The notes under the pieces were generated by a model, which saw only the letters and a program-made list of their open reading frames with translations, ran no database searches and was not told the DNA's origin. The translations under genes were made by a program, and so were the position numbers. This document shows, piece after piece, positions 49,901-64,000 of a DNA stretch of 64,000 nucleotides. The stretch is from Gammaproteobacteria bacterium (lineage in GTDB: Bacteria > Pseudomonadota > Gammaproteobacteria > Tethybacterales > CBDBMS01), in the NCBI GenBank assembly GCA_965207545.1, contig CBDBMS010000003.1, forward strand, positions 285,411 through 349,410. Reading direction: 5' to 3'. The first letter of the stretch is position 1, and every line of letters begins with the position of its first letter.

Positions 49901-52900
49901 ACACTGTGCGCGCTGACTGTGGCGTCGACTTCGTTACCGAGCGGAACCTATGAGACGGATGTTACGGTTGATCTGACAAGCGTTCAGGAGTTGGTGTCAG
50001 CGGGTACGCCAACGCTTACGATTCTCTGGGAAGCCCATCCGGTGCTTCTGACGCGTCCTATTCCCAACACCAACCCCTATCTCTCTTTCCTGCCGGACAC
50101 AGCATCGTTTCCCGCGGCTGTGAATCCGGAGAACCGACCCTTCGGTCTTGTGACCATGGACTATGGAAACTTGGCAGGCAACCGGGACATTACGCTAAGT
50201 GCAACCGGTTTGCCGGCGCTGGCGGCGCTGACGCTAGAGGAGGGAGTACTGACGCCTTTGACTTGCCGGATCACTGCCGGGACGCCTTGCACTGTCAGTG
50301 TCGCGAACGATCTTGGCGCTGTCGTGTTTATGGGCTCGATCGAGAACGCCCATGTGCTTTCCGCCGGAGACACAGTGACAGTTCAATGGAACGGCAATGA
50401 CGTTCTGGAAGTGGAGGCTCTCCCGGCTCAGCCGCTCAATGTTGTGGGAAGTCCCGCCACGGTTCGCTATGCGCCAACACCGCCTGGCCGCGGAATTCTG
50501 CAGGCGTTCGAGAGAGTGACCGTCGATTACTCCCCTGTCGACCCTGCGCTGACGTCCATCACGTTGGCAATCACCGCAAGCGGTTTGCAGACCGGCAACT
50601 CGCTTTCCGGCGATCCGATGCTCCCGGGTCAGAATGTCCAGTTCACCCCGGCAGCCAGTGTGCAGCCTGTCACATTGACGACCACCACTCCCGGCGATTT
50701 TACGTTCAGCCTAAACCTGACGCTTGCACCGAACCGTTTGGAGACAGGTTCGACAATGGCGCTGTCGGCGGAAGGCCTCCCGTTTCTCTCGATTCAACCG
50801 GCGACGCTAGGTTTCATGCCGGCGTCAGTAGGCTACGTCAACGCACCTGGAGGAATGAGGTCTCTTTTCGATGTCAACCTGATCTACAGCGGCAACGTCA
50901 GCGCAGCCGTGGCCAATGTGTTCCTGGAGCATGAGGGCTTTGATTTTCCTCAGGCTTCAGACCGGTTCCTGCTCTCGCTGAACACGACTCCTCCGGAGAC
51001 GTGCGACCTGCACAGGAATGCACCTGCGACATGTGACTGGACTTTCCCGCTGACAGGCGGCATGGCCAACATTCCAGTCGACGTCAGCCAATTCAGCGAC
51101 ATTGGGGGCGGTACCGCGTATCTGAAGTACCGCGGGGTAACCGTGCTTACCTTTATGCCTGCCATGCCAACGCTCAGTATTTCCCCAAACATGGCAACAT
51201 TTGATTCACTATTGGATGGTGCTCAACCAGCCATAGCAAGATTTTCCTATAGCCAGGGCCATCCAGGCGCGTTAGCTACGGACGTCACATTGACAGTAAG
51301 CGGGATAAGAGCCGGGAATTCTCATGTTCTACAGGCTACCGGCATCAACTGTTTTTTGGGCGCTGACGGTGAATGCGCATTCAGTTTTACGACTGGGTCC
51401 GACGGGACATACAATCTTGATCCCTTCGCCGTGACGCAATTTGATCGTGACTCTCAAGGTCCCCACCCGATTACAGTCAGCTGGAACGGCCAGGAGATTT
51501 TTGTGTGGACACCCATCCCGCCGTCGATCTCTGCCAATCCCGACAGATTTCAATTTAGGGCGGGTACGTCAGGGAACAACAGCGATCGTGTTAGCCCTCC
51601 TGTCACAGTCACGTATTCTTCACGCGATGTTAACTTATCAGAGGCCGTTCTCACCGTCACTGCATCCGGCCTTGCGAGCGGAGCCACCATCGCGATGGAC
51701 TTGGACATCATGCCGGCACAGTCATGCAGTTTCACTCGCGTTGCGGCCGAATGTGTTGTCACCTTGGAGAGTCCGTCGTCGACTGGGGAGTTCGAGCAGG
51801 AGTTGAGGACCACACTGGAGAACCCTGTTGCCCAGGGAGACGCCAATATGACGCTCTCAACGATAGACACCGACTTCTACATATTGGCACCCGCCTCTGT
51901 GACGCTCGGCTTTGCCCCCAACAGTGGACTGTTTGATCAACTGGGTATTGGGAGGCGCGACCACAGACCGGCATTTTCCTATAGCCAGGGTCTTCCAGGT
52001 GCGTCAAATACGACCGTCACATTGACAGTGAGCGGGCTGATGGGCACAGGTAATGGCTTAAATATGGACGTTGGTACCAATAGTTGCTCCCTGGGCCAGC
52101 TGATTGGCACTTTTGAGTGTGAACTCACTTTCACAACTCAAGCTGACGGGACGTTCAGTGCGAGCAGCCTGCTTAGGCTTCTCAGAGTTCAAGATCAAGA
52201 TGGCAACCCGGTCACAATCAGCTGGGACGGCCAGGAGGTTTTCGTGTTCGAACCGACACCGCCGTCGATCTCTGCCAGTCCCGACAGCTCTGCGTTTACG
52301 CCGACAGCCACTCCTCAGGTTTTCCGTTCCGTGCTCTCTTACGCTTCGCGTGACACCGGCTTGTCAAGAGCCACGATTACTGTCACTGCATCCGGCTTGC
52401 AGACTAACGTCACGGTTAGGTCGCGCTTCGACACCTCTCCAAGGCGAACATGCGACTTCACCACTGTTGCATCCCAATGCGTTCTCACATTGAGCGGACC
52501 GGATAGCTCCGGAACCTTCGATCATGAGATGACGGTCACATTGAGAAATCCTGATGACCAAGGCCAGTCCAATGTGACGCTCTCATGGGAAGACAATGAC
52601 TTCTACACCCTTTCGGTTCCAATGTCGTTGCTTAGCTTTACTCCCCGCGGGTTGTTGTTCCCCTTCAACGTAGAAGCTGTCAGAATTGCTGGTTTCTACA
52701 ACCAGAGACCTCCTGCATTTAGCTACTACACATCCAGTGGTGCAGGAACTTATGATGTCACGCTGGCCGAAAGCGGATTACAAACCGGCAACCAAATTTT
52801 CTTAAATTTGGACAGGTTCGGCGTTGATGAGTGCTCTCTAGTCGAAGATGGTACCTGCTCGTTCGCCGTTACCGTTGGTGCCAACAATTTTGCTAGCTTC

Positions 52901-53809
52901 GACTCAATAAGCTTTAGGACAGCCAGCTTTGCCGATCAGACCAATACGGTCACTATAAGTTGGGACAGCACTCCCGTCTTGATAGTTACACCGCCATCGC
53001 CAGGTTCAAATGCCGACTTCGGTTTTGATGCGACTGCTGCGTCTTTCAGGCAGGGCGCCAATCTTCTCGATGTGGCTGACAGGATCATCACGGTTGGCTT
53101 TGATTACGATTATGACAACCCAGCCCAGCCAGGCGGCTTTATGGGTCGAATACCCGCTCCCTTACTCACACTCACTGTCACCGGTTTGCAGACTCAAGTG
53201 AGCTTGGACACCAGCATACGCGGCAGCCAGTGCTCGTGGACTACCAACGGCTTGGGATGTGTTTATAACATGAGTGACTCGGGAACTGAGGGCATGTTCA
53301 GCGACACGTTGCTTATGACCTTGAAAATGGCGGGGAGACAGGGGACAAGTGCGATCACGCTTCAATGGACTCATCCCGTCTCGGGAACGAGCGCCGACGT
53401 GCTTACACTGACTCCGGCTGCACCGGCGGAGAGCTTGCGGTTCGATCCGATGACGGTTACATACACGCCTTCCTCTGGAACAACACCGGCATCTCTAGGT
53501 GATGTGACCCTCAACTACAACTCCGCCTCCGATTCGGCGGTCAGACAGTTTGTCACAATCACCTGGAACGCCTCTAATATGTCTTCGATTGACGAGATCG
53601 AGTTTCGTAACAGGTACATAGGCGTTAACCAGACGGCAACGCTCAGTCCCACGGAGACGACCGCTACGGTCGGTGTTGAAGGCAACTACGGCATTCTCTC
53701 ATCTGCCGTTACCATTTACGCAACGGATCCAAGTTCCCTTGGATCCGAGACGGTTGAAATCGACTGGGAGGGCGATACCGTTCTTGAGATTGAGGCGGCA
53801 ACACCATGA
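46964..53809 (+). CDS. giant (2281 aa) type IV prepilin-like protein with a long repeat-containing C-terminal extension
   Basis: Likely start ATG at 46979 (ATGA overlap with the upstream stop). ...RTRAGG|FTIVEMAIVLVVLGLLLSS has Gly-1, Phe+1 and Glu+5. GRPYLPCPDIDGDGLEDR and WGRLYIYRV motifs. The C-terminal third contains ~245-aa degenerate internal repeats and is AT-richer. Confidence 0.65.
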   Translation: MGALAMRDCVSRFSRSFRTGRKGADCPGFRTRAGGFTIVEMAIVLVVLGLLLSSALTPLRHRWENGKYEDERERIEQRRQALVAYATQNRTEERTVVLEDLGWSYTIPAGRPYLPCPDIDGDGLEDRLATSGLPDSGTAITLESASNFRGIAAAGGCQHYQGLFPWGSVGTEANDTWGRLYIYRVHPSFSNNVSGFDHLTRADVYDETSGLVVSTVTVNYAGKDLVPTSAISNDSIRFLYNTELSDQATVTVTTYQSLYESTATTTTATINGVTAVLVHDERPFGVCAPGVRAAAGATVTMSAHCPDADAVAGVALTMSTASNVVEFDPPRTGISGPLLVRAYMGSDNGADADDIPRSFKEGVVFGVVSTGQNGYGGFVRNAAGGLACGSHPVPDEPSPEVMHLSLLKNVSGHCSTLPTSYAPHYEGNLYYLPRTEPTTFEADSETSSPVGFDDVIGWMGPDEFVGKLARQDVFPVEMYPYIGLPLDSTTVAMSVAPALGVDYTGAPGSSVTIDPARDASGSARFVGRTDPPLPLSDGTTISLTVQVDQEDGNTTQVPFRFDTEDVTLTLEATGAPCVDDMDTPLPEITGGDSCLISVTGRVPADILLSVTGVTVDDFVNAAATIQMVPFIGTSPTVSLAHPSVAILTPNSAAGSIVFAPSDVFYTPAVAPGLEMLATLQALYIPEADGVPQTLTLEAASIPAGVTLTLGGVPSCISVGVNMCEYRFGGMTTEFDATLSAQDLTTAASFSVTVAGGGAVLTIRTRTAPFVDEFRVLGGSAATTYFRTGAPVLKRFALKGGGLQPLERLTVTVSISSNRMTSSEKFINTDISVATPEAECYDNVMVPPVQATMVGHGDHCVFELTGSNEARFLLRLNELRPELITLTTTPTGLELALRETTSTAPGVYFDPRVLPYITATPTPGATRLAGATLHVSTGTGAAPSSDFVFTLTSAPPSPIVLAAAFAAGVTPSTCSFSGGTTLCALTVASTSLPSGTYETDVTVDLTSVQELVSAGTPTLTILWEAHPVLLTRPIPNTNPYLSFLPDTASFPAAVNPENRPFGLVTMDYGNLAGNRDITLSATGLPALAALTLEEGVLTPLTCRITAGTPCTVSVANDLGAVVFMGSIENAHVLSAGDTVTVQWNGNDVLEVEALPAQPLNVVGSPATVRYAPTPPGRGILQAFERVTVDYSPVDPALTSITLAITASGLQTGNSLSGDPMLPGQNVQFTPAASVQPVTLTTTTPGDFTFSLNLTLAPNRLETGSTMALSAEGLPFLSIQPATLGFMPASVGYVNAPGGMRSLFDVNLIYSGNVSAAVANVFLEHEGFDFPQASDRFLLSLNTTPPETCDLHRNAPATCDWTFPLTGGMANIPVDVSQFSDIGGGTAYLKYRGVTVLTFMPAMPTLSISPNMATFDSLLDGAQPAIARFSYSQGHPGALATDVTLTVSGIRAGNSHVLQATGINCFLGADGECAFSFTTGSDGTYNLDPFAVTQFDRDSQGPHPITVSWNGQEIFVWTPIPPSISANPDRFQFRAGTSGNNSDRVSPPVTVTYSSRDVNLSEAVLTVTASGLASGATIAMDLDIMPAQSCSFTRVAAECVVTLESPSSTGEFEQELRTTLENPVAQGDANMTLSTIDTDFYILAPASVTLGFAPNSGLFDQLGIGRRDHRPAFSYSQGLPGASNTTVTLTVSGLMGTGNGLNMDVGTNSCSLGQLIGTFECELTFTTQADGTFSASSLLRLLRVQDQDGNPVTISWDGQEVFVFEPTPPSISASPDSSAFTPTATPQVFRSVLSYASRDTGLSRATITVTASGLQTNVTVRSRFDTSPRRTCDFTTVASQCVLTLSGPDSSGTFDHEMTVTLRNPDDQGQSNVTLSWEDNDFYTLSVPMSLLSFTPRGLLFPFNVEAVRIAGFYNQRPPAFSYYTSSGAGTYDVTLAESGLQTGNQIFLNLDRFGVDECSLVEDGTCSFAVTVGANNFASFDSISFRTASFADQTNTVTISWDSTPVLIVTPPSPGSNADFGFDATAASFRQGANLLDVADRIITVGFDYDYDNPAQPGGFMGRIPAPLLTLTVTGLQTQVSLDTSIRGSQCSWTTNGLGCVYNMSDSGTEGMFSDTLLMTLKMAGRQGTSAITLQWTHPVSGTSADVLTLTPAAPAESLRFDPMTVTYTPSSGTTPASLGDVTLNYNSASDSAVRQFVTITWNASNMSSIDEIEFRNRYIGVNQTATLSPTETTATVGVEGNYGILSSAVTIYATDPSSLGSETVEIDWEGDTVLEIEAATP

Positions 53810-55248
53810 TGAAGCGGGCCACATCACCGGCAACAGGTTCAGGTGCGGGCAGTCGCAGCGCCTTTGGTTTCTTCCGGATCGGTCTTGGTCCGTCGAGTTC
53901 CCATACTGTGGGTCCGATGCGTGCGGCCCGTGACTTCTGTGTTGATCTGCGTGACAAGGGCGTTCTGGAGAGCGTATCGCGCGTCCAGGCGTTTCTGCAT
54001 GGTTCGCTGGCGGCGACCGGAGTGGGACATGGCACCGATCGCGCCGTAGTTCTCGGCCTCTCAGGCGAAGTCCCCGAGGAAGTTGATCCGGTTGCGGCGG
54101 TGGAACTCGTGGAATCGGTTCGTGCACAAGGGAGAATCAGGCTTCTTGGTGTCCATGAGGTCGAGTTTGACATGTCGAAAGACATTGTCATGATCCGCCG
54201 TCCGTTGCCAACCCATCCGAACGGAATGGTTTTCGAGGCGGCGGATGCCTCTGACAGGAAATTGGGCAAGGCTGAACGCTATTCGGTTGGCGGCGGGTTT
54301 GTTACTGGTCCTGAAGATTCCGCCGGAGAGGAACAGGAAAACGTTGAATATCCATATCCTTTTGGCACCGGTGTGGAGCTTCTTGCAATGTGTGCACGGA
54401 AGGGCCTATCGGTGTCGGAGCTGATGATGGCGAATGAATGTGCACAAGGACTCGATGAGAGCGAAGTCCGTGCAGGACTGCTTGCCGTCTGGAATGCGAT
54501 GGTTGCTTGCATAGATGCGGGTTGTTCGAACAGTGGGATCCTTCCGGGTGGTCTTAGGGTGCGTCGCCGCGCACCGGATCTGTATGCGCAGCTGAAGACG
54601 GAGCACGGCTCGAACACCGACGACCTGCATATCTTGGACTGGGTTAACCTCTATGCGTTGGCGGTGAACGAAGAGAATGCGGCTGGCGGCCGCGTGGTGA
54701 CCGCACCGACAAATGGTGCGGCTGGGGTGGTTCCAGCGGTGTTGCGCTACTTTTCGGACTTTCGCGTTGCTAGGGCAGGACGTTGCATGGAGGACGAAAT
54801 AGTGTCGTTTCTGCTTGCTGCCGCGGCGGTGTGCGTCCTGTTCAAGCGCAATGCATCAATATCAGGAGCCGAGGTCGGATGCCAGGGCGAGATTGGTTCG
54901 GCATGTGCAATGGCTGCTGCGGGTTTGACGGAGGTTTCCGGCGGCACGCCGGAACAGGTGGAGAATGCCGCTGAAATAGGGCTTGAGCACAATCTTGGCC
55001 TAACTTGTGATCCGGTTGGAGGGCTTGTACAGATCCCGTGCATAGAGCGTAATGCTCAGGCGGCCGTCAAGGCGATCAATGCTTCCCGCATAGCGTTGCG
55101 TGGCGATGGCACACATCAGGTCTCGCTGGACCAGGTGATCAAGACAATGTGGAACACCGGACAGGACATGAAGCTTAAGTACAAGGAGACCGCTCGCGGA
55201 GGACTGGCTGCTACGGTTAAAATACCAGTGAATGTGGTTGAATGTTAG
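53806..55248 (+). CDS. sdaA: L-serine dehydratase (iron-sulfur, single-chain)
   Basis: [19 protein letters not shown]...[33 protein letters not shown]...[26 protein letters not shown]...[22 protein letters not shown] is collinear with SdaA. Start and stop both overlap the flanking prepilin-like genes. Confidence 0.88.
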
Positions 55249-56780
55249 GCATGGACAGCAAAGGGAAGAATAGGCTTGGTTGCGCGGGTGTGTCTCAGCG
55301 GGGCTACTCGCTGGTCGAGTTAGCCATTGTTCTGGCAGCTTTGGGGCTGTTTCTGGGTGGTGCGACGGTGCCCCTGTTTCAGCTCTACCGTAATTCCGCC
55401 ATTGACAAGACGGAGCAGCGCTTGGCGGATGTACATGCGGCGATAGCGGGTTATGCGGTCCGCCATAGGACTCCCGGACTTAGATATGTCGTAGAGACGC
55501 AGATTACCGATGCTTCGGGCAATCGGAGGTCGGATACGCGTTCCTACTGGATTCCCGCCAATCGACCCTATCTTCCGTGCCCGGACTACAACAGCGATGG
55601 CATTGAGAACAGAGTTGATCCGATGGCGGTTATCATGAGTCAGTTGATCAATGGGCATGTTGTTGATGTCAAGCCGGTCACTCTTAATCCGGCTGCGACG
55701 TATCCCTTGCTTCAGGAGATGCAGAATGAGAAGGATTTCACCACTGCAAATGCAGGAGTGAGAATGCGGTCGCTGGCTGAATATGGCGTGTGTGCGCACC
55801 ATCCGGGACATACCAGTGATTCGTCAAACTCGCACAATGCCAATGACCGGGGAGTGTTGCCTTGGCGTACACTCGGGGTTCTGCCGACGGATCGTTGGGG
55901 TGGAAGATTCACTTATCGTGCCGATACCGTTTACGCCTCGGCGCTTACTGGCTTTGGTCACGACACTTCGATCGACAGCTATGACCCTAGGGTGCCAATG
56001 CACTATCTCCAGAACGGCGGAAATCTGCGTCTCATGTCGCTGAGAAGGCCGTCAGTGTCGAATGGAGCTGCCGTCAACGATACCTTGACTCCCAAGTCCA
56101 TGGTGCCTTCAATGGTATGTTCGGAACCAGACTATAATGATGGCGGTGGAGAACGTCTTCACGTGTGCGATCCGGTTCGTCCTAATTCTACCGGTCTGAT
56201 TACCAGAATTAACTCGTCGATCAGTAGCTCCAACACTCAGCCTGAGCATGAGCTCCTTGTGGGAAGCGTTGCCACTGCCCAAGTTGGGCATACGCAGGAA
56301 AACATACGTCCGATACCGTTTCCTCTGGATCTTCTGACCGCGAGCAACCTTCCAGGTCACACATCGGCTGTACAGGTCGGAGGTGTTGTTGAAGGTCTCC
56401 CATACGTGGTTCTTTCCCATGGTCCGAACCAGCATTTTGCTGTTAAGCACCGCGAGGCGGCAGATGCTTTTGAAACCTTGTCCTCTTCGACCAGTCAGTG
56501 GAATCCTTGTCTTGTGGGTAGAGATTCCGTCAGAAGCAACGGCAGACTTAATACAGACGCCTCGATATTCGAGGCTCATAACAGTCCTTGTCCTGTGATA
56601 TACGCATCTGGCGCCAATAGGCAATATCCAACCTATCTGTTTGTCAAAAAGCTTGGCCCAAGTTGGGATGATGATTTCGATGACATCATTGAGTGGCGAA
56701 CCAGGAGCCAGCTTTTGGCCGATCTGTCTGAAGCTGGTGTCCTACCTGCTGCGGGTCTGCCATTGCTTTTAGTGCGTTAG
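55242..56780 (+). CDS. large (512 aa) type IV prepilin-like protein (class III signal peptide)
   Basis: ...GVSQRG|YSLVELAIVLAALGLFLGG has Gly-1 and Glu+5. NRPYLPCPDYNSDGIENR and WGGRFTYRA motifs. The 3' half is AT-richer. An alternative ATG at 55251 exists. Confidence 0.65.
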   Translation: MLGMDSKGKNRLGCAGVSQRGYSLVELAIVLAALGLFLGGATVPLFQLYRNSAIDKTEQRLADVHAAIAGYAVRHRTPGLRYVVETQITDASGNRRSDTRSYWIPANRPYLPCPDYNSDGIENRVDPMAVIMSQLINGHVVDVKPVTLNPAATYPLLQEMQNEKDFTTANAGVRMRSLAEYGVCAHHPGHTSDSSNSHNANDRGVLPWRTLGVLPTDRWGGRFTYRADTVYASALTGFGHDTSIDSYDPRVPMHYLQNGGNLRLMSLRRPSVSNGAAVNDTLTPKSMVPSMVCSEPDYNDGGGERLHVCDPVRPNSTGLITRINSSISSSNTQPEHELLVGSVATAQVGHTQENIRPIPFPLDLLTASNLPGHTSAVQVGGVVEGLPYVVLSHGPNQHFAVKHREAADAFETLSSSTSQWNPCLVGRDSVRSNGRLNTDASIFEAHNSPCPVIYASGANRQYPTYLFVKKLGPSWDDDFDDIIEWRTRSQLLADLSEAGVLPAAGLPLLLVR

Positions 56781-56979
56781 TTTCTAGCCTCTAGGCTTCT
56801 GATGATTGCCAAGTCTTCTTGGAAGCGCGGCTGACCATCGGATAAGGGGTTGTGCTTGATCAAAGTGCCGAGACTAGCTCCGGATTTCAAGGTTTCGCCG
56901 AGATGATGGATTCTTTTCCCACCTGTGCCTGTTGCTTTTGTTTGCGTGATGTTTACAGGTAGAATACCCAGTTCATTCA

Positions 56980-57005
56980 CCCCCCCCCCCCCCCCCCCCC
57001 CCCCC
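56980..57005 (+). repeat. homopolymeric poly(C) tract, 26 nt
   Basis: Uninterrupted C26 in the AT-rich intergenic region. It lies ~15 nt downstream of a TAGAAT hexamer and ~255 nt upstream of the first in-frame ATG of the tandem-repeat adhesin gene. Confidence 0.85.
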
Positions 57006-57260
57006 TTATTTTTGGTCTGACCGCTCAAAGACAAGTTGGAGGGCATCCAGCAGCAGCATAGTCAGTATTAGGGGTTGCCCTATTTATGCGTTGTATGTCT
57101 CACTGGTTAATTGTGTTGTCAAGGCATCCAGTAATTCCAGTGAGATTGTTGAACCACAATGTTACTCCATGCAATTACTGCAAAAAAGAATTGGCATTAC
57201 TCACAAATTTGTGTGGAGCATTGATCCTTGCAAAAAGTGAATTTCCAATTTCATTAAACC

Positions 57261-60200
57261 ATGCGTATGCATTATTTAGTACAGTGTGTACTGGTCATGA
57301 TTCTGCTGATCTTTCCGAATGCATTGACCCAGGAGGTGCTTCCTGCCATGTCTCGAATGCCTATGCTTCATTGCAATTTCGTAGGTGATAATGAATGCCC
57401 CGTAGGGAGTGCTGTCATTACAATCTCAAAGATGCCTATGACTGGCGAGGATGGTACAGATGATGAAATTAAAGTCGCATTAACGGTTATACCAGACAAC
57501 CTGGTCACGGTGTGGGTAACTAGTTCGGATCTTAGCGAGGCGGTGGTTTCACCAATGTCGTTGGTGTTTGATGAGATCAACTGGCGTAGTGGAGTGACGG
57601 TGACGGTGACGGGCATTGACGATGAGGTCGACGACGGTGACATTAACTACGAGATTCGCCTGTCGACGAGAGCTATTCCTGACGACCTCCACTATGCGGC
57701 AGTTCTGACGGCCAGCACGACCGGGACCAACAGCGACGACGACATGGCCGGCCTGTCGGTGCCGCCGGGGCGCCTGGCGACCAGCGAGGCGGGAGCCACG
57801 GCGCGGTTCCCGGTGTCGCTGTCGAGCGAGCCGACCGGTCTGGTGACGGTGTCGGTGTCCAGCTCGGATGCCGGCGAGGCGACGGCGGCGCCGCCGTCGC
57901 TGGTGTTTGATGCCGACAGCTGGGACACGGCGCTGACGGTGACGGTGACGGGCGTTGACGACGAGATTGACGACGGCGACGTCGCCTACGAGATCGACCT
58001 GTCGGTGAGCGCGGCGCCGGCCGGCAGCCCCTATGCGGGCCTGACGGCCGACGTGGCCGGGACCAACAGCGACGACAGCGACATGGCCGGCCTGTCGGTG
58101 CCGCCGGGGCGCCTGACGACCAGCGAGGCGGGAGCCACGGCGCGGTTCACGGTGTCGCTGTCGAGCGAGCCGACCGGCCCGGTGACGGTGACGGTGTCCA
58201 GCTCGGATGCCGGCGAGGCGACGGCGGCGCCGCCGTCGCTGGTGTTTGACGCCGACAGCTGGGACACGGCGCTGACGGTGACGGTGACGGGCGTCGACGA
58301 CGAGATTGACGACGGCGACGCCGACTACGAGATCGACCTGTCGGTGAGCGCCTCGCCGGCCGGCAGCCCCTACGCGGGCCTGACGGCCGACGTGGCCGGA
58401 ACCAACAGCGACGACGACATGGCCGGCCTGTCGGTGCCGCCGGGGCGCTTGGCGACCAGCGAGGCGGGAGGCACGGCACGGTTCACGGTGTCGCTGGCGA
58501 GCGAGCCGACCGGCCCGGTGACGGTGTCGGTGTCCAGCTCGGATGCCGGCGAGGCGACGGCGGCGCCGTCGTTGCTGGTGTTTAACGCCGGCAGCTGGGA
58601 CACGGCGCTGACGGTGACGGTGACGGGCATTGACGACAAGATTGACGACGGCGACGTCGACTACGGGATCCGCCTGTCGGTGAGCGCGGCGCCGGCCGGC
58701 AGCCCCTATAAGAGGATGTTGATTACGGTACTAGGAACAAATTCGGACGATGATACGGGCGAATTGCTAGTTCCTTCGACCTCCTTTTTAACTGATGAGG
58801 ATGGAGGGCAAGGAGTTTTCGCAGTTAGCCTTTCCAGCAATCCGTTTGGAATGGTGACGGTATCAGTGACAAGTGGTGATTTAACGGAAGGCATTCCCAC
58901 ATTGCCAACACTAGTGTTCAGCCCGTCAAATTGGAATGTAGGACTTTCCGTAACAGTTTTGGGACAGGATGATACCATTGCAGACGGAGATACGAAGTAT
59001 AAGATAAGTCTTTCGGTAAGCGGAGTAGATGAGGGGAGTGTATACACAGGTTCCACAGCTATTGTCACTGGCATTAACGCTGAAAACGAGACGATTGAAA
59101 TAATCACTTCTCCAGATTTTGTAAGGACGGGGGAGGGGGGCGTGAATGCAATGATTACCGTTAAGCTCTCAAGCAAACCAAGAGGTGCAGTGTATGTACA
59201 GGTAGACAGTTCTAATGACGCGGAGGCAAGAGTTTCTCAGACACTGAGGTTCCGCAAGGCAACCTGGAATATTGGACAAACACTCGAGGTGTTAGGTGTA
59301 GATGATAATGTTGCGGATGGTGTGATTGGCTATGAGATCTTTCTGATAGCTCAGGCATCAAAAAGAAACCCTTATCGTAATGTAAGAACAACAGTTTTAG
59401 GGAGCAATGCGGATGATGAACTAGCTGAACTGGTAATTGATTCATCATCTATTGCAACTGGTGAAGATGGCGCAACAGATAGTTTTAAAGTGTCGCTGTC
59501 GAGCGAGCCGACCGGCCTGGTGACGGTGTCGGTGTCCAGTTCGGATGCCGGCGAGGCGACGGCGTCGCCGCCGTCGCTGGTGTTTGACGCCGACAGCTGG
59601 GAGACGGCGCTGACGGTGACGGTGACGGGCGTCGACGACGAGATCGACGACGGCGACGTCGCCTACGAGATCGAACTGTCGGTGAGCGCGGCGCCGGCCG
59701 GCAGCCCCTACGTGGGCCTGACGGCCGAGGTGGCCGGGACCAACAGCGACGACAGCGACATGGCGGGCCTGTCGGTGCCGCCGGGGCGCCTGGCGACCAG
59801 CGAGGCGGGAGCCACGGCGCGGTTCACGGTGTCGCTGTCGAGCGAGCCGACCGGCCTGGTGACGGTGTCGGTGTCCAGTTCGGATGCCGGCGAGGCGACG
59901 GCGACGCCGCCGTCGCTGGTGTTTGACGCCGACAGCTGGGACACGGCGCTGACGGTGACGGTGACGGGCGTCGACGACGAGATCGACGACGGCAGCGTCG
60001 CCTACGAGATCGAGCTGTCGGTGAGCGCGGCGCCGGCCGGCAGCCCCTACGCGGGCCTGACGGCCGAGGTGGCCGGGACCAACAGCGACGACAGCGACAT
60101 GGCGGGCCTGTCGGTGCCGCCGGGGCGCCTGGCGACCAGCGAGGCGGGAGCCACGGCGCGGTTCACGGTGTCGCTGTCGAGCGAGCCGATCGGCCTGGTG

Positions 60201-63200
60201 ACGGTGTCGGTGTCCAGTTCGGATGCCGGCGAGGCGACGGCGGCGCCGTCGTCGCTGGTGTTTGACGCCGACAGCTGGGACACGGCGCTGACGGTGACGG
60301 TGACGGGCGTCGACGACGAGATCGACGACGGCAACGTCGCCTACGAGATCAAGCTGTCGGTGAGCGCGGCGCCGGCCGGCAGCCCCTACGTAGGCCTGAC
60401 GGCCGACGTGGCCGGGACCAACAGCGACGACAGCGACATGGCGGGCCTGTCGGTGCCGCCGGGGCGCCTGGCGACCAGCGAGGCGGGAGCCACGGCGCGG
60501 TTCACGGTGTCGCTGTCGAGCGAGCCGATCGGCCTGGTGACGGTGTCGGTGTCCAGTTCGGATGCCGGCGAGGCGACGGCGGCGCCGTCGTCGCTGGTGT
60601 TTGACGCCGACAGCTGGGACACGGCGCTGACGGTGACGGTGACGGGCGTCGACGACGAGATCGACGACGGCAGCGTCGCCTACGAGATCGAGCTGTCGGT
60701 GAGCGCGGCGCCGGCCGGCAGCCCCTACGCGGGCCTGACGGCCGACGTGGCCGGGACCAACAGCGACGACAGCGACATGGCCGGCCTGTCGGTGCCGCCG
60801 GGGCGCCTGGCGACCAGCGAGGCGGGAGCCACGGCGCGGTTCACGGTGTCGCTGGCGAGCGAGCCGACCGGCCTGGTGACGGTGTCGGTGTCCAGTTCGG
60901 ATGCCGGCGAGGCGACGGCGGCGCCGTCGTCGCTGGTGTTTGACGCCGACAGCTGGGACACGGCGCTGACGGTGACGGTGACGGGCGTCGACGACGAGAT
61001 TGACGACGGCAGCGTCGCCTACGAGATCGAGCTGTCGGTGAGCGCGGCGCCGGCCGGCAGCCCCTACGTGGGCCTGACGGCCGACGTGGCCGGGACCAAC
61101 AGCGACGACAGCGACATGGCGGGCCTGTCGGTGCCGCCGGGGCGCCTGGCGACCAGCGAGGCGGGAGCCACGGCGCGGTTCACGGTGTCGCTGTCGAGCG
61201 AGCCGACCGGCCCGGTGACGGTGTCGGTGTCCAGTTCGGATGCCGGCGAGGCGACGGCGGCGCCGTCGTCGCTGGTGTTCGGCGCCGACAGCTGGGACAC
61301 GGCGCTGACGGTGACGGTGACGGGCGTCGACGACGAGATCGACGACGGCAGCGTCGCCTACGAGATCGAGCTGTCGGTGAGCGCGGCGCCGGCCGGCAGC
61401 CCCTACGTGGGCCTGACGGCCGACGTGGCCGGGACCAACAGCGACGACAGCGACATGGCCGGCCTGTCGGTGCCGCCGGGGCGCCTGGCGACCAGCGAGG
61501 CGGGAGCCACGGCGCGGTTCACGGTGTCGCTGGCGAGCGAGCCGACCGGCCTGGTGACGGTGTCGGTGTCCAGTTCGGATGCCGGCGAGGCGACGGCGGC
61601 GCCGTCGTCGCTGGTGTTTGACGCCGACAGCTGGGACACGGCGCTGACGGTGACGGTGACGGGCGTCGACGACGAGATCGACGACGGCAGCGTCGCCTAC
61701 GAGATCGAGCTGTCGGTGAGCGCGGCGCCGGCCGGCAGCCCCTACGCGGGCCTGACGGCCGACGTGGCCGGGACCAACAGCGACGACAGCGACATGGCGG
61801 GCCTGTCGGTGCCGCCGGGGCGCCTGGCGACCAGCGAGGCGGGAGCCACGGCGCGGTTCACGGTGTCGCTGTCGAGCGAGCCGACCGGCCTGGTGACGGT
61901 GTCGGTGTCCAGTTCGGATGCCGGCGAGGCGACGGCGGCGCCGTCGTCGCTGGTGTTCGGCGCCGACAGCTGGGACACGGCGCTGACGGTGACGGTGACG
62001 GGCGTCGACGACGAGATCGACGACGGCAGCGTCGCCTACGAGATCGAGCTGTCGGTGAGCGCGGCGCCGGCCGGCAGCCCCTACGTGGGCCTGACGGCCG
62101 AGGTGGCCGGGACCAACAGCGACGACAGCGACATGGCGGGCCTGTCGGTGCCGCCGGGGCGCCTGGCGACCAGCGAGGCGGGAGCCACGGCGCGGTTCAC
62201 GGTGTCGCTGGCGAGCGAGCCGACCGGCCTGGTGACGGTGTCGGTGTCCAGTTCGGATGCCGGCGAGGCGACGGCGGCGCCGTCGTCGCTGGTGTTTGAC
62301 GCCGACAGCTGGGACACGGCGCTGACGGTGACGGTGACGGGCGTCGACGACGAGATCGACGACGGCAGCGTCGCCTACGAGATCGAGCTGTCGGTGAGCG
62401 CGGCGCCGGCCGGCAGCCCCTACGCGGGCCTGACGGCCGAGGTGGCCGGGACCAACAGCGACGACAGCGACATGGCGGGCCTGTCGGTGCCGCCGGGGCG
62501 CCTGGCGACCAGCGAGGCGGGAGCCACGGCGCGGTTCACGGTGTCGCTGTCGAGCGAGCCGACCGGCCTGGTGACGGTGTCGGTGTCCAGTTCGGATGCC
62601 GGCGAGGCGACGGCGGCGCCGTCGTCGCTGGTGTTTGACGCCGACAGCTGGGACACGGCGCTGACGGTGACGGTGACGGGCGTCGACGACGAGATCGACG
62701 ACGGCAGCGTCGCCTACGAGATCGAGCTGTCGGTGAGCGCGGCGCCGGCCGGCAGCCCCTACGTAGGCCTGACGGCCGACGTGGCCGGGACCAACAGCGA
62801 CGACAGCGACATGGCCGGCCTGTCGGTGCCGCCGGGGCGCCTGGCGACCAGCGAGGCGGGAGCCACGGCGCGGTTCACGGTGTCGCTGTCGAGCGAGCCG
62901 ACCGGCCCGGTGACGGTGTCGGTGTCCAGTTCGGATGCCGGCGAGGCGACGGCGGCGCCGTCGTCGCTGGTGTTCGGCGCCGACAGCTGGGACACGGCGC
63001 TGACGGTGACGGTGACGGGCGTCGACGACGAGATTGACGACGGCAGCGTCGCCTACGAGATCGAGCTGTCGGTGAGCGCGGCGCCGGCCGGCAGCCCCTA
63101 CGCGGGCCTGACGGCCGACGTGGCCGGGACCAACAGCGACGACAGCGACATGGCGGGCCTGTCGGTGCCGCCGGGGCGCCTGGCGACCAGCGAGGCGGGA

Positions 63201-64000
63201 GCCACGGCGCGGTTCACGGTGTCGCTGTCGAGCGAGCCGACCGGCCTGGTGACGGTGTCGGTGTCCAGCTCGGATGCCGGCGAGGCGACGGCGACGCCGC
63301 CGTCGCTGGTGTTTGACGCCGACAGCTGGGACACGGCGCTGACGGTGACGGTGACGGGCGTCGACGACGAGATCGACGACGGCAGCGTCGCCTACGAGAT
63401 CGAGCTGTCGGTGAGCGCGGCGCCGGCCGGCAGCCCCTACGCGGGCCTGACGGCCGAGGTGGCCGGGACCAACAGCGACGACAGCGACATGGCGGGCCTG
63501 TCGGTGCCGCCGGGGCGCCTGGCGACCAGCGAGGCGGGAGCCACGGCGCGGTTCACGGTGTCGCTGTCGAGCGAGCCGATCGGCCTGGTGACGGTGTCGG
63601 TGTCCAGTTCGGATGCCGGCGAGGCGACGGCGGCGCCGTCGTCGCTGGTGTTTGACGCCGACAGCTGGGACACGGCGCTGACGGTGACGGTGACGGGCGT
63701 CGACGACGAGATCGACGACGGCAACGTCGCCTACGAGATCAAGCTGTCGGTGAGCGCGGCGCCGGCCGGCAGCCCCTACGTAGGCCTGACGGCCGACGTG
63801 GCCGGGACCAACAGCGACGACAGCGACATGGCGGGCCTGTCGGTGCCGCCGGGGCGCCTGGCGACCAGCGAGGCGGGAGCCACGGCGCGGTTCACGGTGT
63901 CGCTGTCGAGCGAGCCGATCGGCCTGGTGACGGTGTCGGTGTCCAGTTCGGATGCCGGCGAGGCGACGGCGGCGCCGTCGTCGCTGGTGTTTGACGCCGA
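57261..64000 (+). CDS. giant tandem-repeat surface adhesin-like protein (Calx-beta / cadherin-like ~113-aa repeats), 5' portion; ORF continues beyond the window end
   Basis: Frame opens after a TAA at 57255. The first ATG is at 57261 with a plausible Sec signal (MRMHYLVQCVLVMILLIFPNALTQ). The ORF then consists of repeats of ...GLSVPPGRLATSEAGATARFTVSLSSEPTGLVTVSVSSSDAGEATAAPSSLVFDADSWDTALTVTVTGVDDEIDDGSVAYEIELSVSAAPAGSPYAGLTADVAGTNSDDSDMA. It is not in the ORF track because it has no stop within the window. The minus-strand 78-95-aa ORFs at 339-nt spacing are antisense artefacts. Confidence 0.6.
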   Translation, partial: MRMHYLVQCVLVMILLIFPNALTQEVLPAMSRMPMLHCNFVGDNECPVGSAVITISKMPMTGEDGTDDEIKVALTVIPDNLVTVWVTSSDLSEAVVSPMSLVFDEINWRSGVTVTVTGIDDEVDDGDINYEIRLSTRAIPDDLHYAAVLTASTTGTNSDDDMAGLSVPPGRLATSEAGATARFPVSLSSEPTGLVTVSVSSSDAGEATAAPPSLVFDADSWDTALTVTVTGVDDEIDDGDVAYEIDLSVSAAPAGSPYAGLTADVAGTNSDDSDMAGLSVPPGRLTTSEAGATARFTVSLSSEPTGPVTVTVSSSDAGEATAAPPSLVFDADSWDTALTVTVTGVDDEIDDGDADYEIDLSVSASPAGSPYAGLTADVAGTNSDDDMAGLSVPPGRLATSEAGGTARFTVSLASEPTGPVTVSVSSSDAGEATAAPSLLVFNAGSWDTALTVTVTGIDDKIDDGDVDYGIRLSVSAAPAGSPYKRMLITVLGTNSDDDTGELLVPSTSFLTDEDGGQGVFAVSLSSNPFGMVTVSVTSGDLTEGIPTLPTLVFSPSNWNVGLSVTVLGQDDTIADGDTKYKISLSVSGVDEGSVYTGSTAIVTGINAENETIEIITSPDFVRTGEGGVNAMITVKLSSKPRGAVYVQVDSSNDAEARVSQTLRFRKATWNIGQTLEVLGVDDNVADGVIGYEIFLIAQASKRNPYRNVRTTVLGSNADDELAELVIDSSSIATGEDGATDSFKVSLSSEPTGLVTVSVSSSDAGEATASPPSLVFDADSWETALTVTVTGVDDEIDDGDVAYEIELSVSAAPAGSPYVGLTAEVAGTNSDDSDMAGLSVPPGRLATSEAGATARFTVSLSSEPTGLVTVSVSSSDAGEATATPPSLVFDADSWDTALTVTVTGVDDEIDDGSVAYEIELSVSAAPAGSPYAGLTAEVAGTNSDDSDMAGLSVPPGRLATSEAGATARFTVSLSSEPIGLVTVSVSSSDAGEATAAPSSLVFDADSWDTALTVTVTGVDDEIDDGNVAYEIKLSVSAAPAGSPYVGLTADVAGTNSDDSDMAGLSVPPGRLATSEAGATARFTVSLSSEPIGLVTVSVSSSDAGEATAAPSSLVFDADSWDTALTVTVTGVDDEIDDGSVAYEIELSVSAAPAGSPYAGLTADVAGTNSDDSDMAGLSVPPGRLATSEAGATARFTVSLASEPTGLVTVSVSSSDAGEATAAPSSLVFDADSWDTALTVTVTGVDDEIDDGSVAYEIELSVSAAPAGSPYVGLTADVAGTNSDDSDMAGLSVPPGRLATSEAGATARFTVSLSSEPTGPVTVSVSSSDAGEATAAPSSLVFGADSWDTALTVTVTGVDDEIDDGSVAYEIELSVSAAPAGSPYVGLTADVAGTNSDDSDMAGLSVPPGRLATSEAGATARFTVSLASEPTGLVTVSVSSSDAGEATAAPSSLVFDADSWDTALTVTVTGVDDEIDDGSVAYEIELSVSAAPAGSPYAGLTADVAGTNSDDSDMAGLSVPPGRLATSEAGATARFTVSLSSEPTGLVTVSVSSSDAGEATAAPSSLVFGADSWDTALTVTVTGVDDEIDDGSVAYEIELSVSAAPAGSPYVGLTAEVAGTNSDDSDMAGLSVPPGRLATSEAGATARFTVSLASEPTGLVTVSVSSSDAGEATAAPSSLVFDADSWDTALTVTVTGVDDEIDDGSVAYEIELSVSAAPAGSPYAGLTAEVAGTNSDDSDMAGLSVPPGRLATSEAGATARFTVSLSSEPTGLVTVSVSSSDAGEATAAPSSLVFDADSWDTALTVTVTGVDDEIDDGSVAYEIELSVSAAPAGSPYVGLTADVAGTNSDDSDMAGLSVPPGRLATSEAGATARFTVSLSSEPTGPVTVSVSSSDAGEATAAPSSLVFGADSWDTALTVTVTGVDDEIDDGSVAYEIELSVSAAPAGSPYAGLTADVAGTNSDDSDMAGLSVPPGRLATSEAGATARFTVSLSSEPTGLVTVSVSSSDAGEATATPPSLVFDADSWDTALTVTVTGVDDEIDDGSVAYEIELSVSAAPAGSPYAGLTAEVAGTNSDDSDMAGLSVPPGRLATSEAGATARFTVSLSSEPIGLVTVSVSSSDAGEATAAPSSLVFDADSWDTALTVTVTGVDDEIDDGNVAYEIKLSVSAAPAGSPYVGLTADVAGTNSDDSDMAGLSVPPGRLATSEAGATARFTVSLSSEPIGLVTVSVSSSDAGEATAAPSSLVFDA
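57405..64000 (+). repeat. tandem array of ~339-bp (113-codon) coding repeats, about 19-20 units in the window; units after ~59500 are near-identical
   Basis: Periodic recurrence of the same 339-nt unit (minus-strand ORF ends at 59944, 60283, 60622 ... 63673 give an exact 339-nt period). The ~58690-59500 block holds diverged, AT-richer units. Confidence 0.85.

What the first reader, a model, noticed from the sequence alone, without database searches (positions are those of the whole stretch)
57261..64000. Open-ended giant adhesin-like gene made of ~20 tandem 113-aa Calx-beta/cadherin-like repeats, most of them nearly identical at the DNA level
- From 57261 a single frame stays open to the window end (>2240 codons). 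It is absent from the ORF track only because it has no stop within the window.
- After a short signal-like N-terminus it consists solely of 339-nt repeats encoding ...SLVFDADSWDTALTVTVTGVDDEIDDGSVAYEI...
- The ...W.T..TVTVTGVDD..DDG...Y.I... signature is typical of Calx-beta/cadherin-like domains in giant RTX-type adhesins, a family assignment made from recollection.
- Units after ~59500 differ by only a handful of substitutions: SEP(T/I)G(L/P)V, SLV(F)(D/G)ADSW, DDG(S/N/D)VAYEI(E/K/D)L, A/V at PY(A/V)G, and D/E at TA(D/E)VAG. This implies very recent expansion or ongoing gene conversion.
- Such arrays are prone to copy-number variation, and short-read assemblers often collapse them. The real length may differ.
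Basis: partly seen in the sequence, partly recalled or inferred. Interest (0 to 1): 0.6.

Follow-up and report, generated by a model that had tools for sequence, protein, structure and literature searches.

The report
Giant autotransporter with Calx-beta-like repeat stalk

Summary
From ATG 57261 one frame stays open to 64000 (2,246 codons, no stop). It holds 19 full 339-nt units and part of a 20th. From 59490 onward the units are 97-100% identical in DNA.

I recovered the full product from a protein library. P0156 has 4,633 aa, matches the window ORF at 2,217 of 2,217 positions from Met30, and lies on the same 1.58-Mb contig. It has 37 domains, no RTX motif, and a C-terminal module of about 440 aa. 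That module matches Pfam Autotransporter (34 bits, cutoff 26), and its model is closest to EstA, NalP and Hbp translocators.

With the Sec-type signal peptide encoded from 57261, this is a classical (type Va) autotransporter. Its passenger is a Calx-beta-like Ig-domain stalk, not a beta-helix. RTX/type I secretion is not supported.

The array shows multi-unit block duplications and recombinant variant patterns, as in variable-length "Periscope" surface proteins.

Homogenised units have GC3 of 0.92-0.97, against 0.39-0.54 for old units of the same gene. Two unrelated genomes show the same direction of shift, which suggests GC-biased gene conversion.

Adhesin function, calcium binding and copy-number variation are inferred, not shown.

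The parts
56980..57005 (+). Poly-C tract of 26 bases, 255 nt upstream of the ATG. Possibly a slipped-strand (phase-variation) element in the promoter or leader, or a sequencing/assembly artefact.
   Evidence: It is the only homopolymer of 9 or more bases in the 64-kb window and was read directly. There is no Rfam match and no sigma-70-like site on the + strand. Any function is inferred only.
57261..64000 (+). In-window part of the giant autotransporter gene (codons 1-2246). By the source's own gene call the ORF ends at about 71249, outside the window.
   Evidence: There are no stops in 2,246 codons. P0156 (4,633 aa) is identical to the window ORF over 2,217 aa from Met30. It lies on the same 1,583,133-bp contig as other window proteins.
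57261..57329 (+). Sec-type (SPase I) signal peptide, aa 1-23: MRMH / YLVQCVLVMILLIF / PNALT, then QE.
   Evidence: Hydropathy peaks at 3.6 (Kyte-Doolittle, 10-residue window). There is a basic n-region, Pro at the start of the c-region, and A-x-T at positions -3 to -1. Family members with intact N-termini also carry signal peptides. No dedicated predictor was available.
57348..57350 (+). Alternative in-frame ATG (Met30), used by the source's gene call. It is preceded by AGGAGG at 57331-57336.
   Evidence: Starting here would remove the signal peptide that a type V protein needs, so I regard 57261 as the true start.
57405..57740 (+). Domain 1: an old, divergent Calx-beta-like domain at the distal (N-terminal) tip, with low GC3 (0.54).
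   Evidence: It is 45% aa identical to the consensus unit and 70.7% identical in DNA over 57500-57673.
57721..58708 (+). Block A: units 2-4 of the expanded high-GC unit family.
   Evidence: They are 92-96% identical in DNA to the block-B consensus, with GC3 of 0.92-0.96.
58709..59489 (+). Low-GC island: the end of unit 4, divergent domains 5 and 6, and the first third of unit 7.
   Evidence: There is no DNA similarity to the consensus and GC3 is 0.39-0.40. Domains 5 and 6 are 46% and 38% aa identical to the consensus. The breakpoints lie inside units, not at domain borders.
59490..64000 (+). Block B: the homogenised array, from unit 7 (last two thirds) to unit 20 (partial). It continues outside the window to unit 37, at about 69926.
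   Evidence: Identity to the consensus is 97-100%, with 15 variable sites per 339 nt. Units 8-10 recur as 18-20 with 1 mismatch in 881 nt. At protein level units 8-13 equal units 18-23 exactly. GC3 is 0.96-0.97.
62472..62807 (+). One representative domain (unit 16) in structural phase: MAGLSVPP...TNSDDS, 112 aa.

Best explanation
The gene encodes a classical (type Va) autotransporter of about 4,660 residues.

**Export (inferred from the architecture).**
- A Sec signal peptide takes the protein across the inner membrane.
- The C-terminal module of about 440 aa inserts in the outer membrane as a beta-barrel.
- The passenger is threaded out through the barrel, C-terminus first.

**Passenger.** It is not the usual beta-helix. 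It is a chain of 37 Calx-beta-like Ig-type domains of about 112 aa each. Every domain has a conserved acidic cluster (E15, E45, D73, D77, N108, D110) in the loops at its C-terminal pole, next to the junction with the following domain.

**Proposed mechanism (inferred).**
- The domains fold one after another outside the cell.
- They bind calcium at the junctions.
- They form a stiff, highly acidic stalk, probably more than 100 nm long.
- The stalk displays the old, divergent N-terminal domains (1, 5, 6) at its tip, as in fibrillar adhesins.

**Array evolution.**
- Thirty of the 37 units belong to one young family kept nearly identical by unequal crossing-over and gene conversion. This should make stalk length variable between cells or strains, as in 'Periscope' proteins.
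- The same recombination may have driven third-codon positions of these units to 96% G+C through GC-biased gene conversion.

**Shown versus inferred.**
- Shown here: the architecture, the fold class, the barrel assignment, the recombination signatures and the GC3 contrast.
- Inferred: adhesion, calcium binding, the order of folding, length variation and the cause of the GC3 shift.
For: **The ORF and its full product.**
- P0156 matches the window ORF at 2,217 of 2,217 aa, has 37 domains and a 440-aa tail, and lies on the same 1.58-Mb contig.

**The C-terminal barrel.**
- The tail scores 34.1 bits against Pfam Autotransporter PF03797 (cutoff 26, E 3e-8). Three of the five other giant-array tails tested also score above the cutoff.
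- The AlphaFold2 model of the tail shows helices followed by a long run of antiparallel strands, and the protein ends in ...LLKF.

**The signal peptide.** Members of the same barrel family with intact N-termini also have signal peptides.

**The repeat domain.**
- Pfam Calx-beta scores 85 bits on aa 1-913.
- The model has pLDDT 97.
- NCX1 CBD1/CBD12 align over 103-108 of 112 residues.
- The protein has 716 D+E against 143 K+R.

**Recombination.**
- 20 of 105 pairs of variable sites show all four gametes.
- A six-unit block is duplicated exactly, and units diverge toward the array edge.
- Breakpoints lie inside units.

**GC3.**
- In the window gene, homogenised units have GC3 of 0.92-0.97 and old units 0.39-0.54. 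Housekeeping genes in the window have 0.64-0.79.
- The same direction is seen in L007 and L020, and a diverged array (L011) is flat.

**Literature.**
- Type Va proteins need a Sec signal. Sequential folding of Ig-like domains drives type Ve secretion (PMC6555100).
- The Periscope concept is in PMC8201768 and PMC9704523.
Against: **Weak points in the domain calls.**
- A single consensus unit scores only 21.8 bits against Calx-beta, below the cutoff of 27.
- A Pfam scan of the full 4,633-aa protein lists only DUF6836. Neither Calx-beta nor Autotransporter appears, so both calls rest on sub-sequence scans.
- The fold searches do not single out Calx-beta. PapD-like, MSP/ASH and S-layer Ig domains score equally well.

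**Weak points in the barrel assignment.**
- The barrel model has moderate confidence (pLDDT 77, 14-sequence alignment) and about 18 strand segments, where classical translocators have 12.
- NCBIfam and PDB sequence searches give nothing.

**The start codon.** The source annotation starts at Met30, which has a strong Shine-Dalgarno sequence and no signal peptide. ATG 57261 has no obvious one.

**Limits of the data.**
- The DNA beyond 64000 was never seen.
- The repeat number depends on an assembly I could not check.
- The GC3 pattern rests on three arrays only.
Confidence: 0.72

Rival explanations
1. It is an RTX-type giant adhesin exported by type I secretion (LapA / MpIBP / SiiE type).
For: - Calx-beta-like and cadherin-like repeats do occur in RTX adhesins. 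LapA is one example (PMC12153261, PMC7616799).
- The protein is very acidic and probably binds calcium.
- 7 of the 150 giant representatives of this domain family carry three or more RTX nonapeptides.
Against: - The full product contains no GGxGxD motif.
- Its C-terminus is an autotransporter barrel.
- It has an N-terminal Sec-type signal peptide.
- No ABC, MFP or TolC genes lie in the 57 kb upstream.
- None of the 120 closest homologues has RTX repeats.
Confidence: 0.02
2. The gene is real, but the array as assembled is partly an artefact. The true copy number differs, and the exact multi-unit duplications come from the assembler looping through a repeat.
For: - Units 8-13 recur exactly as units 18-23, with 1 mismatch in 881 nt in the window.
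- About 10 kb of 339-nt repeats at 97-100% identity is hard to assemble.
- A 26-base homopolymer lies just upstream.
Against: - The contig is 1.58 Mb, and related giant arrays also sit on contigs of 0.8-1.1 Mb. That fits long-read assemblies.
- The 30 units carry 16 distinct protein variants in a non-periodic order, which a collapsed or looped assembly would not produce.
- The reading frame is intact over 13.9 kb.
Confidence: 0.2
3. The passenger is not an adhesin. It is cleaved and released, or retained, as a calcium-binding matrix, spacer or S-layer-like coat protein.
For: - No recognisable adhesive or enzymatic head domain is present. After the signal peptide only about 25 residues precede domain 1.
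- S-layer SbsC domains are among the best fold matches.
- The protein has an extreme negative charge.
- Many homologues consist of the array alone.
Against: - The divergent tip domains (1, 5, 6) are preserved within an otherwise homogenised array. This suggests a specialised distal function.
- Long repetitive stalks on type V barrels are typical of adhesins (PMC6555100, PMC9704523).
Confidence: 0.2
4. The high GC3 of the expanded units comes from horizontal acquisition of that unit from a high-GC donor (for example Myxococcota) followed by amplification. GC-biased gene conversion is not the cause.
For: - GC3 of 0.96 is far above the host genes (0.64-0.79). The old units and neighbouring genes are below them.
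- The closest named homologues are from high-GC Myxococcota.
- The gene is absent from the syntenic site of a relative, so it is an accessory gene.
Against: - Two unrelated low-GC genomes show the same direction of shift, restricted to their homogenised units.
- No donor closer than about 45% identity was found.
- The breakpoints lie inside units.
Confidence: 0.3

Closest known systems
Classical (type Va) autotransporter adhesins (pertactin, Ag43, AIDA-I, ShdA)
   Same: - It has an N-terminal Sec signal and a C-terminal outer-membrane barrel of the Autotransporter family (Pfam above threshold).
- The best fold matches of the tail are EstA, NalP and Hbp.
- The passenger lies N-terminal to the barrel.
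- A helix precedes the barrel, and the protein ends in an aromatic residue.
   Different: - Described passengers are beta-helices, or catalytic domains with or without a beta-helix stalk. The 2022 review (PMC9289746) gives three types and no Ig-like arrays.
- Here the passenger is 37 tandem Ig-type domains with no beta-helix or autochaperone region.
- The barrel module is longer than usual (about 340 strand-region residues, about 18 strand segments in the model).
Inverse (type Ve) autotransporters: intimin, invasin and relatives
   Same: - They have long repetitive stalks of Ig-like domains displayed from a type V barrel.
- Repeat number varies (2-47 BIg repeats).
- Secretion is thought to be driven by sequential domain folding (PMC6555100, PMC9704523).
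   Different: - Their barrel is N-terminal, and the passenger emerges N-to-C.
- Their domains are of the BIg families, not Calx-beta-like.
- In this protein the topology is the opposite.
Periscope proteins (SasG, Rib, Sgo0707, Esp, CdrA)
   Same: - They are single-chain surface proteins with long arrays of nearly identical domains.
- High DNA identity between repeats allows intragenic recombination and length change (PMC8201768, PMC9704523).
   Different: - Length variation between strains, the defining behaviour, could not be tested here.
- Calx-beta does not occur in the main text of the Periscope paper searched for it (PMC8201768).
- The anchoring is by a type Va barrel.
Calx-beta-containing calcium-dependent adhesins (BapP of Pseudoalteromonas tunicata; LapA)
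   Same: - They contain Calx-beta-type beta-sandwich repeats.
- Their proposed role is calcium-dependent surface adhesion.
- BapP also has a Sec/SPI signal peptide (PMC12153261).
   Different: - BapP has a beta-propeller head, 12 mixed repeats and no autotransporter barrel.
- LapA is an RTX / type I substrate with a single Calx-beta domain.
Uncharacterised giant proteins from (meta)genomes with the same architecture (P0154, P0244, P0296 and 12 others)
   Same: - They share the same stalk domain family and the same barrel family: 16 of the 150 best giant representatives.
- P0154 (7,219 aa, 59 domains) also has nearly identical repeats.
   Different: - They come from other organisms; the barrels are only 16-31% identical.
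- None carries a name or has any experimental study.

Membership tests
Type Va (classical) autotransporter | C-terminal outer-membrane translocator beta-domain (Pfam PF03797) | tested here: met
   The 449-aa tail of the full product scores 34.1 bits against a cutoff of 26 (E 3e-8), covering profile positions 16-200 of 255. Caveat: the family is not listed when the whole 4,633-aa protein is scanned, and NCBIfam gives no hit.
Type Va (classical) autotransporter | Fold of the C-terminal module: a beta-barrel like known translocators, preceded by a linker helix | tested here: met
Type Va (classical) autotransporter | 12-stranded barrel | tested here: inconclusive
   The model shows about 18 strand segments over about 340 residues, and TonB-dependent receptors align over more than 300 residues. 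No coordinates were available to count strands in the barrel wall.
Type Va (classical) autotransporter | N-terminal Sec signal peptide | tested here: met
   Read from ATG 57261, the N-terminus has canonical n, h and c regions. Relatives with intact N-termini have signal peptides. Caveats: the source's gene call starts at Met30 and so lacks it, and no signal-peptide predictor was available.
Type Va (classical) autotransporter | Beta-helical passenger or autochaperone region (typical, not strictly defining) | tested here: not met
   The passenger is 37 Ig-type domains that run straight into the linker helices. No pertactin-like or other beta-helix family was found.
Calx-beta domain (PF03160) | Sequence match above the Pfam gathering score | tested here: inconclusive
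   The first 913 aa score 85.2 bits (cutoff 27), with the best stretch in unit 4. The consensus unit alone scores 21.8 bits. Only 11 of 55 related domains match at E<0.01, and the family is not listed in the full-length scan.
Calx-beta domain (PF03160) | Seven-strand Greek-key beta-sandwich like the NCX1/CALX calcium-binding domains | tested here: met
Calx-beta domain (PF03160) | Calcium bound by acidic residues in the loops at one pole of the domain | not testable with these tools
   Conserved E15, E45, D73, D77, N108 and D110 fall in the A-B, C-D and E-F loops and after strand G of the model. By strand order these lie at the same pole. Binding itself was not tested.
RTX adhesins exported by type I secretion (LapA, MpIBP, SiiE) | C-terminal RTX nonapeptide repeats and secretion signal | tested here: not met
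   There are no GGxGxD motifs in the 4,633-aa product. The C-terminus is a beta-barrel.
RTX adhesins exported by type I secretion (LapA, MpIBP, SiiE) | No Sec signal; an N-terminal retention module | tested here: not met
   A Sec-type signal peptide is followed after about 25 residues by the first repeat domain.
RTX adhesins exported by type I secretion (LapA, MpIBP, SiiE) | Adjacent ABC transporter, membrane-fusion and outer-membrane genes | tested here: inconclusive
   None were found in the 57 kb upstream. The DNA downstream of the gene could not be obtained.
Periscope proteins | Single-chain surface protein with a long array of highly identical, independently folding tandem domains | tested here: met
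   30 of the 37 units differ by 0-15 of 113 residues. DNA identity is 97-100% in the window. The domain model is a compact sandwich.
Periscope proteins | Repeat number varies between related strains or within populations | not testable with these tools
   No second strain or reads were available. Indirect signs of recombination are the four-gamete pairs and the block duplications.
Inverse (type Ve) autotransporter | N-terminal beta-barrel followed by Ig-like repeats | tested here: not met
   The N-terminus is a signal peptide plus 25 residues, and then domain 1. The barrel is C-terminal.

The most novel reading that the evidence does not exclude
This gene and its 15 or more uncharacterised relatives would form a fourth structural class of classical autotransporters.

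- The passenger would be a calcium-stiffened chain of Calx-beta-like Ig domains. It would be exported C-to-N by sequential domain folding, and its length would be tuned by intragenic recombination.
- That recombination would leave a measurable GC-biased gene-conversion footprint, with GC3 driven to 0.96.
- Homogenised repeat arrays would then serve as natural reporters of biased gene conversion in bacteria.
Probability: 0.3. Interest if true: 0.7.

Novelty: new variant of a known kind. Interest (0 to 1): 0.5.

Why it matters
**For type V secretion.**
- Classical autotransporters are thought to depend on a beta-helical passenger whose stepwise folding pulls the chain out.
- This protein has a type Va barrel and a 4,200-residue passenger built only of Ig-type domains. 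It shows that the same topology can carry the kind of stalk known from inverse autotransporters.
- It therefore offers a test of whether sequential domain folding, possibly helped by calcium, is enough for C-to-N export.

**For genome evolution.**
- Within one gene, homogenised units have GC3 of 0.92-0.97 and old units 0.39-0.54. Two unrelated genomes show the same direction of shift.
- This is a simple, checkable prediction for GC-biased gene conversion in bacteria, which is still debated.

**For annotation.**
- The source's gene call probably cuts off the signal peptide.
- Whole-protein HMM scans miss both key domains, so such genes are easily left as 'hypothetical'.

Tried and rejected
**Reaching the DNA beyond 64000. 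All attempts failed.**
- Scans of genome contigs and metagenome contigs found only relatives at 26-42% identity.
- The look-up of encoding contigs returned 'not on record' for five proteins of the source, although four window proteins and P0127 are in the protein collection.
- The 3' part was finally obtained only as protein, through the exhaustive profile search.

**Homology search with the N-terminal 823 aa.**
- There was no orthologue, only generic Calx-beta arrays of 1,440 aa or less.

**Homology search with the barrel.**
- There were no hits.

**PDB sequence searches.**
- The domain profile, the barrel sequence and the barrel profile all gave nothing.

**NCBIfam on the barrel.**
- There were no hits.

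**Rfam on the leader and poly-C region.**
- There were only chance-level hits.

**Promoter and terminator scan.**
- Nothing was found on the + strand.

**Synteny.**
- The conserved pilin-like cluster next door exists in a relative without the Calx-beta gene.
- I therefore dropped the idea that the two are functionally linked.

**Lipoprotein anchoring.**
- Many homologues use it.
- Here LVQC is not a lipobox, because Q is at position -1.

- They could not separate Calx-beta from PapD-like, MSP or S-layer Ig folds.

**Literature.**
- I found no description of a type Va autotransporter with an Ig-like or Calx-beta array passenger.
- I found nothing on biased gene conversion in bacterial repeat arrays.
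- The library is incomplete, so absence there is weak evidence.
Full report
**1. The observation**

- The frame that starts at ATG 57261 is preceded by an in-frame TAA at 57255. It runs without a stop to the end of the window, 2,246 codons in all.
- The other five frames carry 18-142 stops.
- Tandem Repeats Finder reports a single array at 57721-64000, with period 339, 18.6 copies and 87% matches.
- Anchoring on the VTVTG(V/I)DD motif gives 19 complete units of 111-113 residues and a partial 20th.
- Units 8-19 differ at 15 of 339 nucleotide positions, 4 synonymous and 11 non-synonymous.

**2. Anatomy of the in-window part**

Comparison with the consensus of units 8-19 divides the gene into five parts.

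| Part | Coordinates | Relation to the consensus |
|---|---|---|
| Signal-like N-terminus and divergent domain 1 | 57261-57740 | 70.7% DNA identity over 57500-57673 |
| Block A (units 2-4) | 57721-58708 | 92-96% identical |
| Island (domains 5, 6, start of unit 7) | 58709-59489 | no detectable DNA similarity |
| Block B | 59490-64000 | 97-100% identical |

- The breakpoints lie inside units, not at domain borders. Events at the DNA level would produce this pattern.
- Base composition follows the same map. GC3 is 0.92-0.97 in blocks A and B.
- GC3 is 0.39-0.54 in the N-terminus and in domains 1, 5 and 6, and 0.72 in the hybrid unit 7.
- Housekeeping genes of the window have GC3 of 0.64-0.79.
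- Among the 15 variable sites of units 8-19, 20 of 105 site pairs show all four allele combinations. Recombination or conversion between units has therefore shuffled them.
- Units 8-10 recur as units 18-20 with one mismatch in 881 nt.

**3. Getting beyond the window**

- The source contig could not be fetched. Both collection scans returned only distant relatives.
Exact look-up nevertheless shows that the source is in the protein collection, on a contig of 1,583,133 bp.
- I built a 55-sequence alignment of the domain (A1) and searched it against 1.84 billion representative proteins.
- Among the hits was P0156 (4,633 aa). It is identical to the window ORF at all 2,217 comparable positions, counted from Met30. 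It sits on a single contig of 1,583,133 bp.
- P0156 is therefore the source's own call of this gene. The gene ends at about 71249.
- The protein has 37 domains, occupying about 57405-69926, and then a C-terminal module of about 440 residues.
- In the full array, units 8-13 recur exactly as units 18-23, and shorter two-unit blocks recur elsewhere.
- The last four units diverge step by step toward the C-terminal module. Unequal crossing-over, with weaker homogenisation at the array edge, would produce this pattern.

**4. The repeat domain**

- The first 913 residues score 85 bits against Pfam Calx-beta, whose cutoff is 27.
- A single consensus unit scores only 21.8 bits, and only 11 of 55 related domains match at E<0.01.
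- A scan of the whole 4,633-aa protein lists only DUF6836, from summed partial matches, and not Calx-beta. This is probably an effect of HMMER's filters on a very repetitive sequence, but I could not verify that.
- The AlphaFold2 model of one unit is very confident (pLDDT 97.2) and is an all-beta sandwich.
- The conserved residues E15, E45, D73, D77, N108 and D110 fall in the A-B, C-D and E-F loops and just after the last strand. By strand order these are all at the C-terminal pole, next to the following domain.
- From memory of the CBD1 structure, this is the arrangement of the calcium sites in NCX1 CBD1. Here it is an inference.
- The protein has 716 acidic and 143 basic residues.
- I call the unit a Calx-beta-like Ig-type domain, a distant member at best.
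- The subfamily is very common: 30,574 representative clusters match, 9,543 of them at E of 1e-30 or better. Some proteins have up to about 68 domains and 7,900 residues.

**5. The export route**

- The C-terminal 449 residues match Pfam Autotransporter beta-domain above threshold (34.1 bits, cutoff 26, E 3e-8). Three of the five other giant-array tails tested also score above the cutoff.
- An AlphaFold2 model of this module (pLDDT 76.8) shows helices, a disordered stretch, a short helix and then long antiparallel strands up to the terminal ...LLKF.
- The full protein has no RTX nonapeptide.
- Read from ATG 57261, the N-terminus is a textbook Sec signal peptide: MRMH, a 14-residue hydrophobic core, then PNALT|QE.
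- A type V protein must cross the inner membrane through Sec (PMC6555100). I therefore take 57261 as the true start. The source's Met30 call would then be an error, although Met30 has the better Shine-Dalgarno sequence.
- A local profile of the barrel finds it in 16 of the 150 best giant representatives. Those with intact N-termini have signal peptides.
- The architecture 'signal peptide, Calx-beta-like array, autotransporter barrel' is thus a recurrent, unnamed family. One member, P0154 (7,219 aa, 59 domains), also has nearly identical repeats.
- Other members of the domain family end in T9SS-like or transmembrane-plus-basic tails or begin with lipoboxes. Only 7 of 150 carry RTX motifs.

**6. 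How it most likely works**

- Shown: the architecture, the fold class and the recombination signatures.
- Inferred from established knowledge of type V secretion (PMC6555100):
  - the signal peptide directs Sec export;
  - the barrel inserts in the outer membrane;
  - the passenger emerges C-terminus first, so that unit 37 folds first and domain 1 last.
- Sequential folding of Ig-like domains is known to drive secretion in inverse autotransporters. I propose the same happens here in the opposite direction, with calcium binding at the domain junctions stiffening the chain.
- With 37 domains the stalk should exceed 100 nm. This is my estimate from the size of Ig-type domains.
- The old, divergent domains 1, 5 and 6 sit near the distal tip and are the best candidates for a specific binding function.
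- The near-identity of 30 units should allow gain and loss of units, as described for Periscope proteins (PMC8201768, PMC9704523).

**7. The GC3 contrast**

- The young units have almost saturated G+C at third positions, while the old units of the same gene are below the genome level.
- Among the loci fetched, only two carry homogenised arrays, and both show the same direction of shift.

| Locus | Array | GC3, homogenised units | GC3, other units |
|---|---|---|---|
| L007 (Croceitalea) | 5 copies, 95% identical | 0.42-0.46 | about 0.27 |
| L020 | 3 copies, 96% identical | 0.59-0.61 | about 0.34 |
| L011 (control) | 71% identical | flat, 0.22-0.38 | flat, 0.22-0.38 |

- This fits GC-biased gene conversion acting where conversion is frequent. 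Three cases do not prove it, and transfer from a high-GC donor remains possible for this gene.
- I found no paper that describes this for bacterial repeat arrays.

**8. Context**

- The window is ordinary proteobacterial chromosome of about 60% GC. It carries pstSCA, ppsA, hemL, trkAH, proA, holA, leuS, dapD, a metal ABC transporter and aguB.
- The gene follows a cluster of pilin-like genes.
- In a relative that keeps this cluster (L023), a methyltransferase, a toxin-antitoxin pair and a transposase fragment occupy the corresponding place. The autotransporter is therefore an accessory gene in a variable spot.
- A 26-base poly-C tract lies 255 nt upstream of the start. It is the only long homopolymer in the window. 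It could be a slipped-strand switch for this surface protein or an artefact.

**9. Comparison with what is known**

- A 2022 classification of classical autotransporters recognises three passenger types, all beta-helical or catalytic. It does not mention Ig-like arrays (PMC9289746).
- Long Ig-like stalks are described for the inverse (type Ve) class (PMC6555100).
- Calx-beta repeats are known from BapP and LapA (PMC12153261).
- This protein combines type Va topology with a type Ve-like, Periscope-like stalk built of a Calx-beta-like domain.
- I rate it a new variant of a known kind. It is common in sequence databases but, as far as I could find, not described.

**10. Verdict**

The gene is a giant, repetitive, Calx-beta-like, recently homogenised surface protein.
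- It is an autotransporter, not an RTX adhesin.
- Interest is moderate.

Noticed in passing
window 36124-56780 (+), and L023 1-11581: Four ORFs just upstream begin with a prepilin-type motif (G|YSIVE, G|FTIVE, G|YSLVE; degenerate G|FIHIL in the largest).

- They are 3,093, 526, 2,281 and 512 aa long and appear translationally coupled.
- All share an (R)PYLPCPD motif about 100 residues in.
- They have no Pfam or NCBIfam family apart from a weak N_methyl hit.
- The three smaller ones share an N-terminal module of 170-230 aa.
- An L-serine dehydratase gene (53806-55248) sits inside the cluster.
- The cluster, including the dehydratase, is conserved in a distant relative.

Pilin-like proteins of 2,000-3,000 residues are unusual.
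   Followed up: partly
window 56980-57005: A run of 26 C lies 255 nt upstream of the giant gene's ATG. It is the only homopolymer of 9 or more bases in the 64 kb. It may be a phase-variation tract or a sequencing/assembly artefact.
   Followed up: partly
window 57261 versus 57348: The source's gene call (P0156) starts at Met30 (ATG 57348, AGGAGG 11 nt upstream). This omits a canonical Sec signal peptide encoded from ATG 57261. For an autotransporter the longer form is the plausible one.
   Followed up: yes
L007 10088-11814; L020 9518-10545; control L011 10045-13012: In two unrelated low-GC genomes, the homogenised units of Calx-beta-like arrays have GC3 raised by about 0.15-0.25 over the other units of the same ORF. 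A diverged array shows no rise. The direction matches the window gene.
   Followed up: partly
window 59730-64000 and beyond (units 8-13 and 18-23 of P0156): A six-unit block (678 aa) is repeated exactly ten units later, and two-unit blocks recur elsewhere. This is either real multi-unit unequal crossing-over or a sign that the assembler looped through the array.
   Followed up: partly
window about 50000-58000: G+C falls to 0.52-0.57 here, against about 0.60 elsewhere. GC3 is low in the last pilin-like gene (0.54) and in the serine dehydratase gene (0.58). The whole right-hand end of the window may be an island of foreign or fast-evolving genes.
   Followed up: no
window 45402-46982: The 526-aa pilin-like protein clusters at 90% identity or more with two shorter proteins (176 and 167 aa) on the same 1.58-Mb contig. 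Partial paralogous copies therefore exist elsewhere in the genome.
   Followed up: no
P0156 (full-length product), Pfam scan: Scanning the whole 4,633-aa protein returns only DUF6836 (114.6 bits, from summed partial matches to the VTVTGVDDEIDDG region). It misses both Calx-beta and Autotransporter, which score above threshold on sub-sequences. Automatic annotation of such repetitive giants is likely to be misleading.
   Followed up: partly
window 26645-28108 (-): A 487-aa ORF between holA and leuS has no NCBIfam match. lptE usually occupies this position, but this ORF is much longer than a typical LptE (the LptE comparison is from my own knowledge).
   Followed up: no
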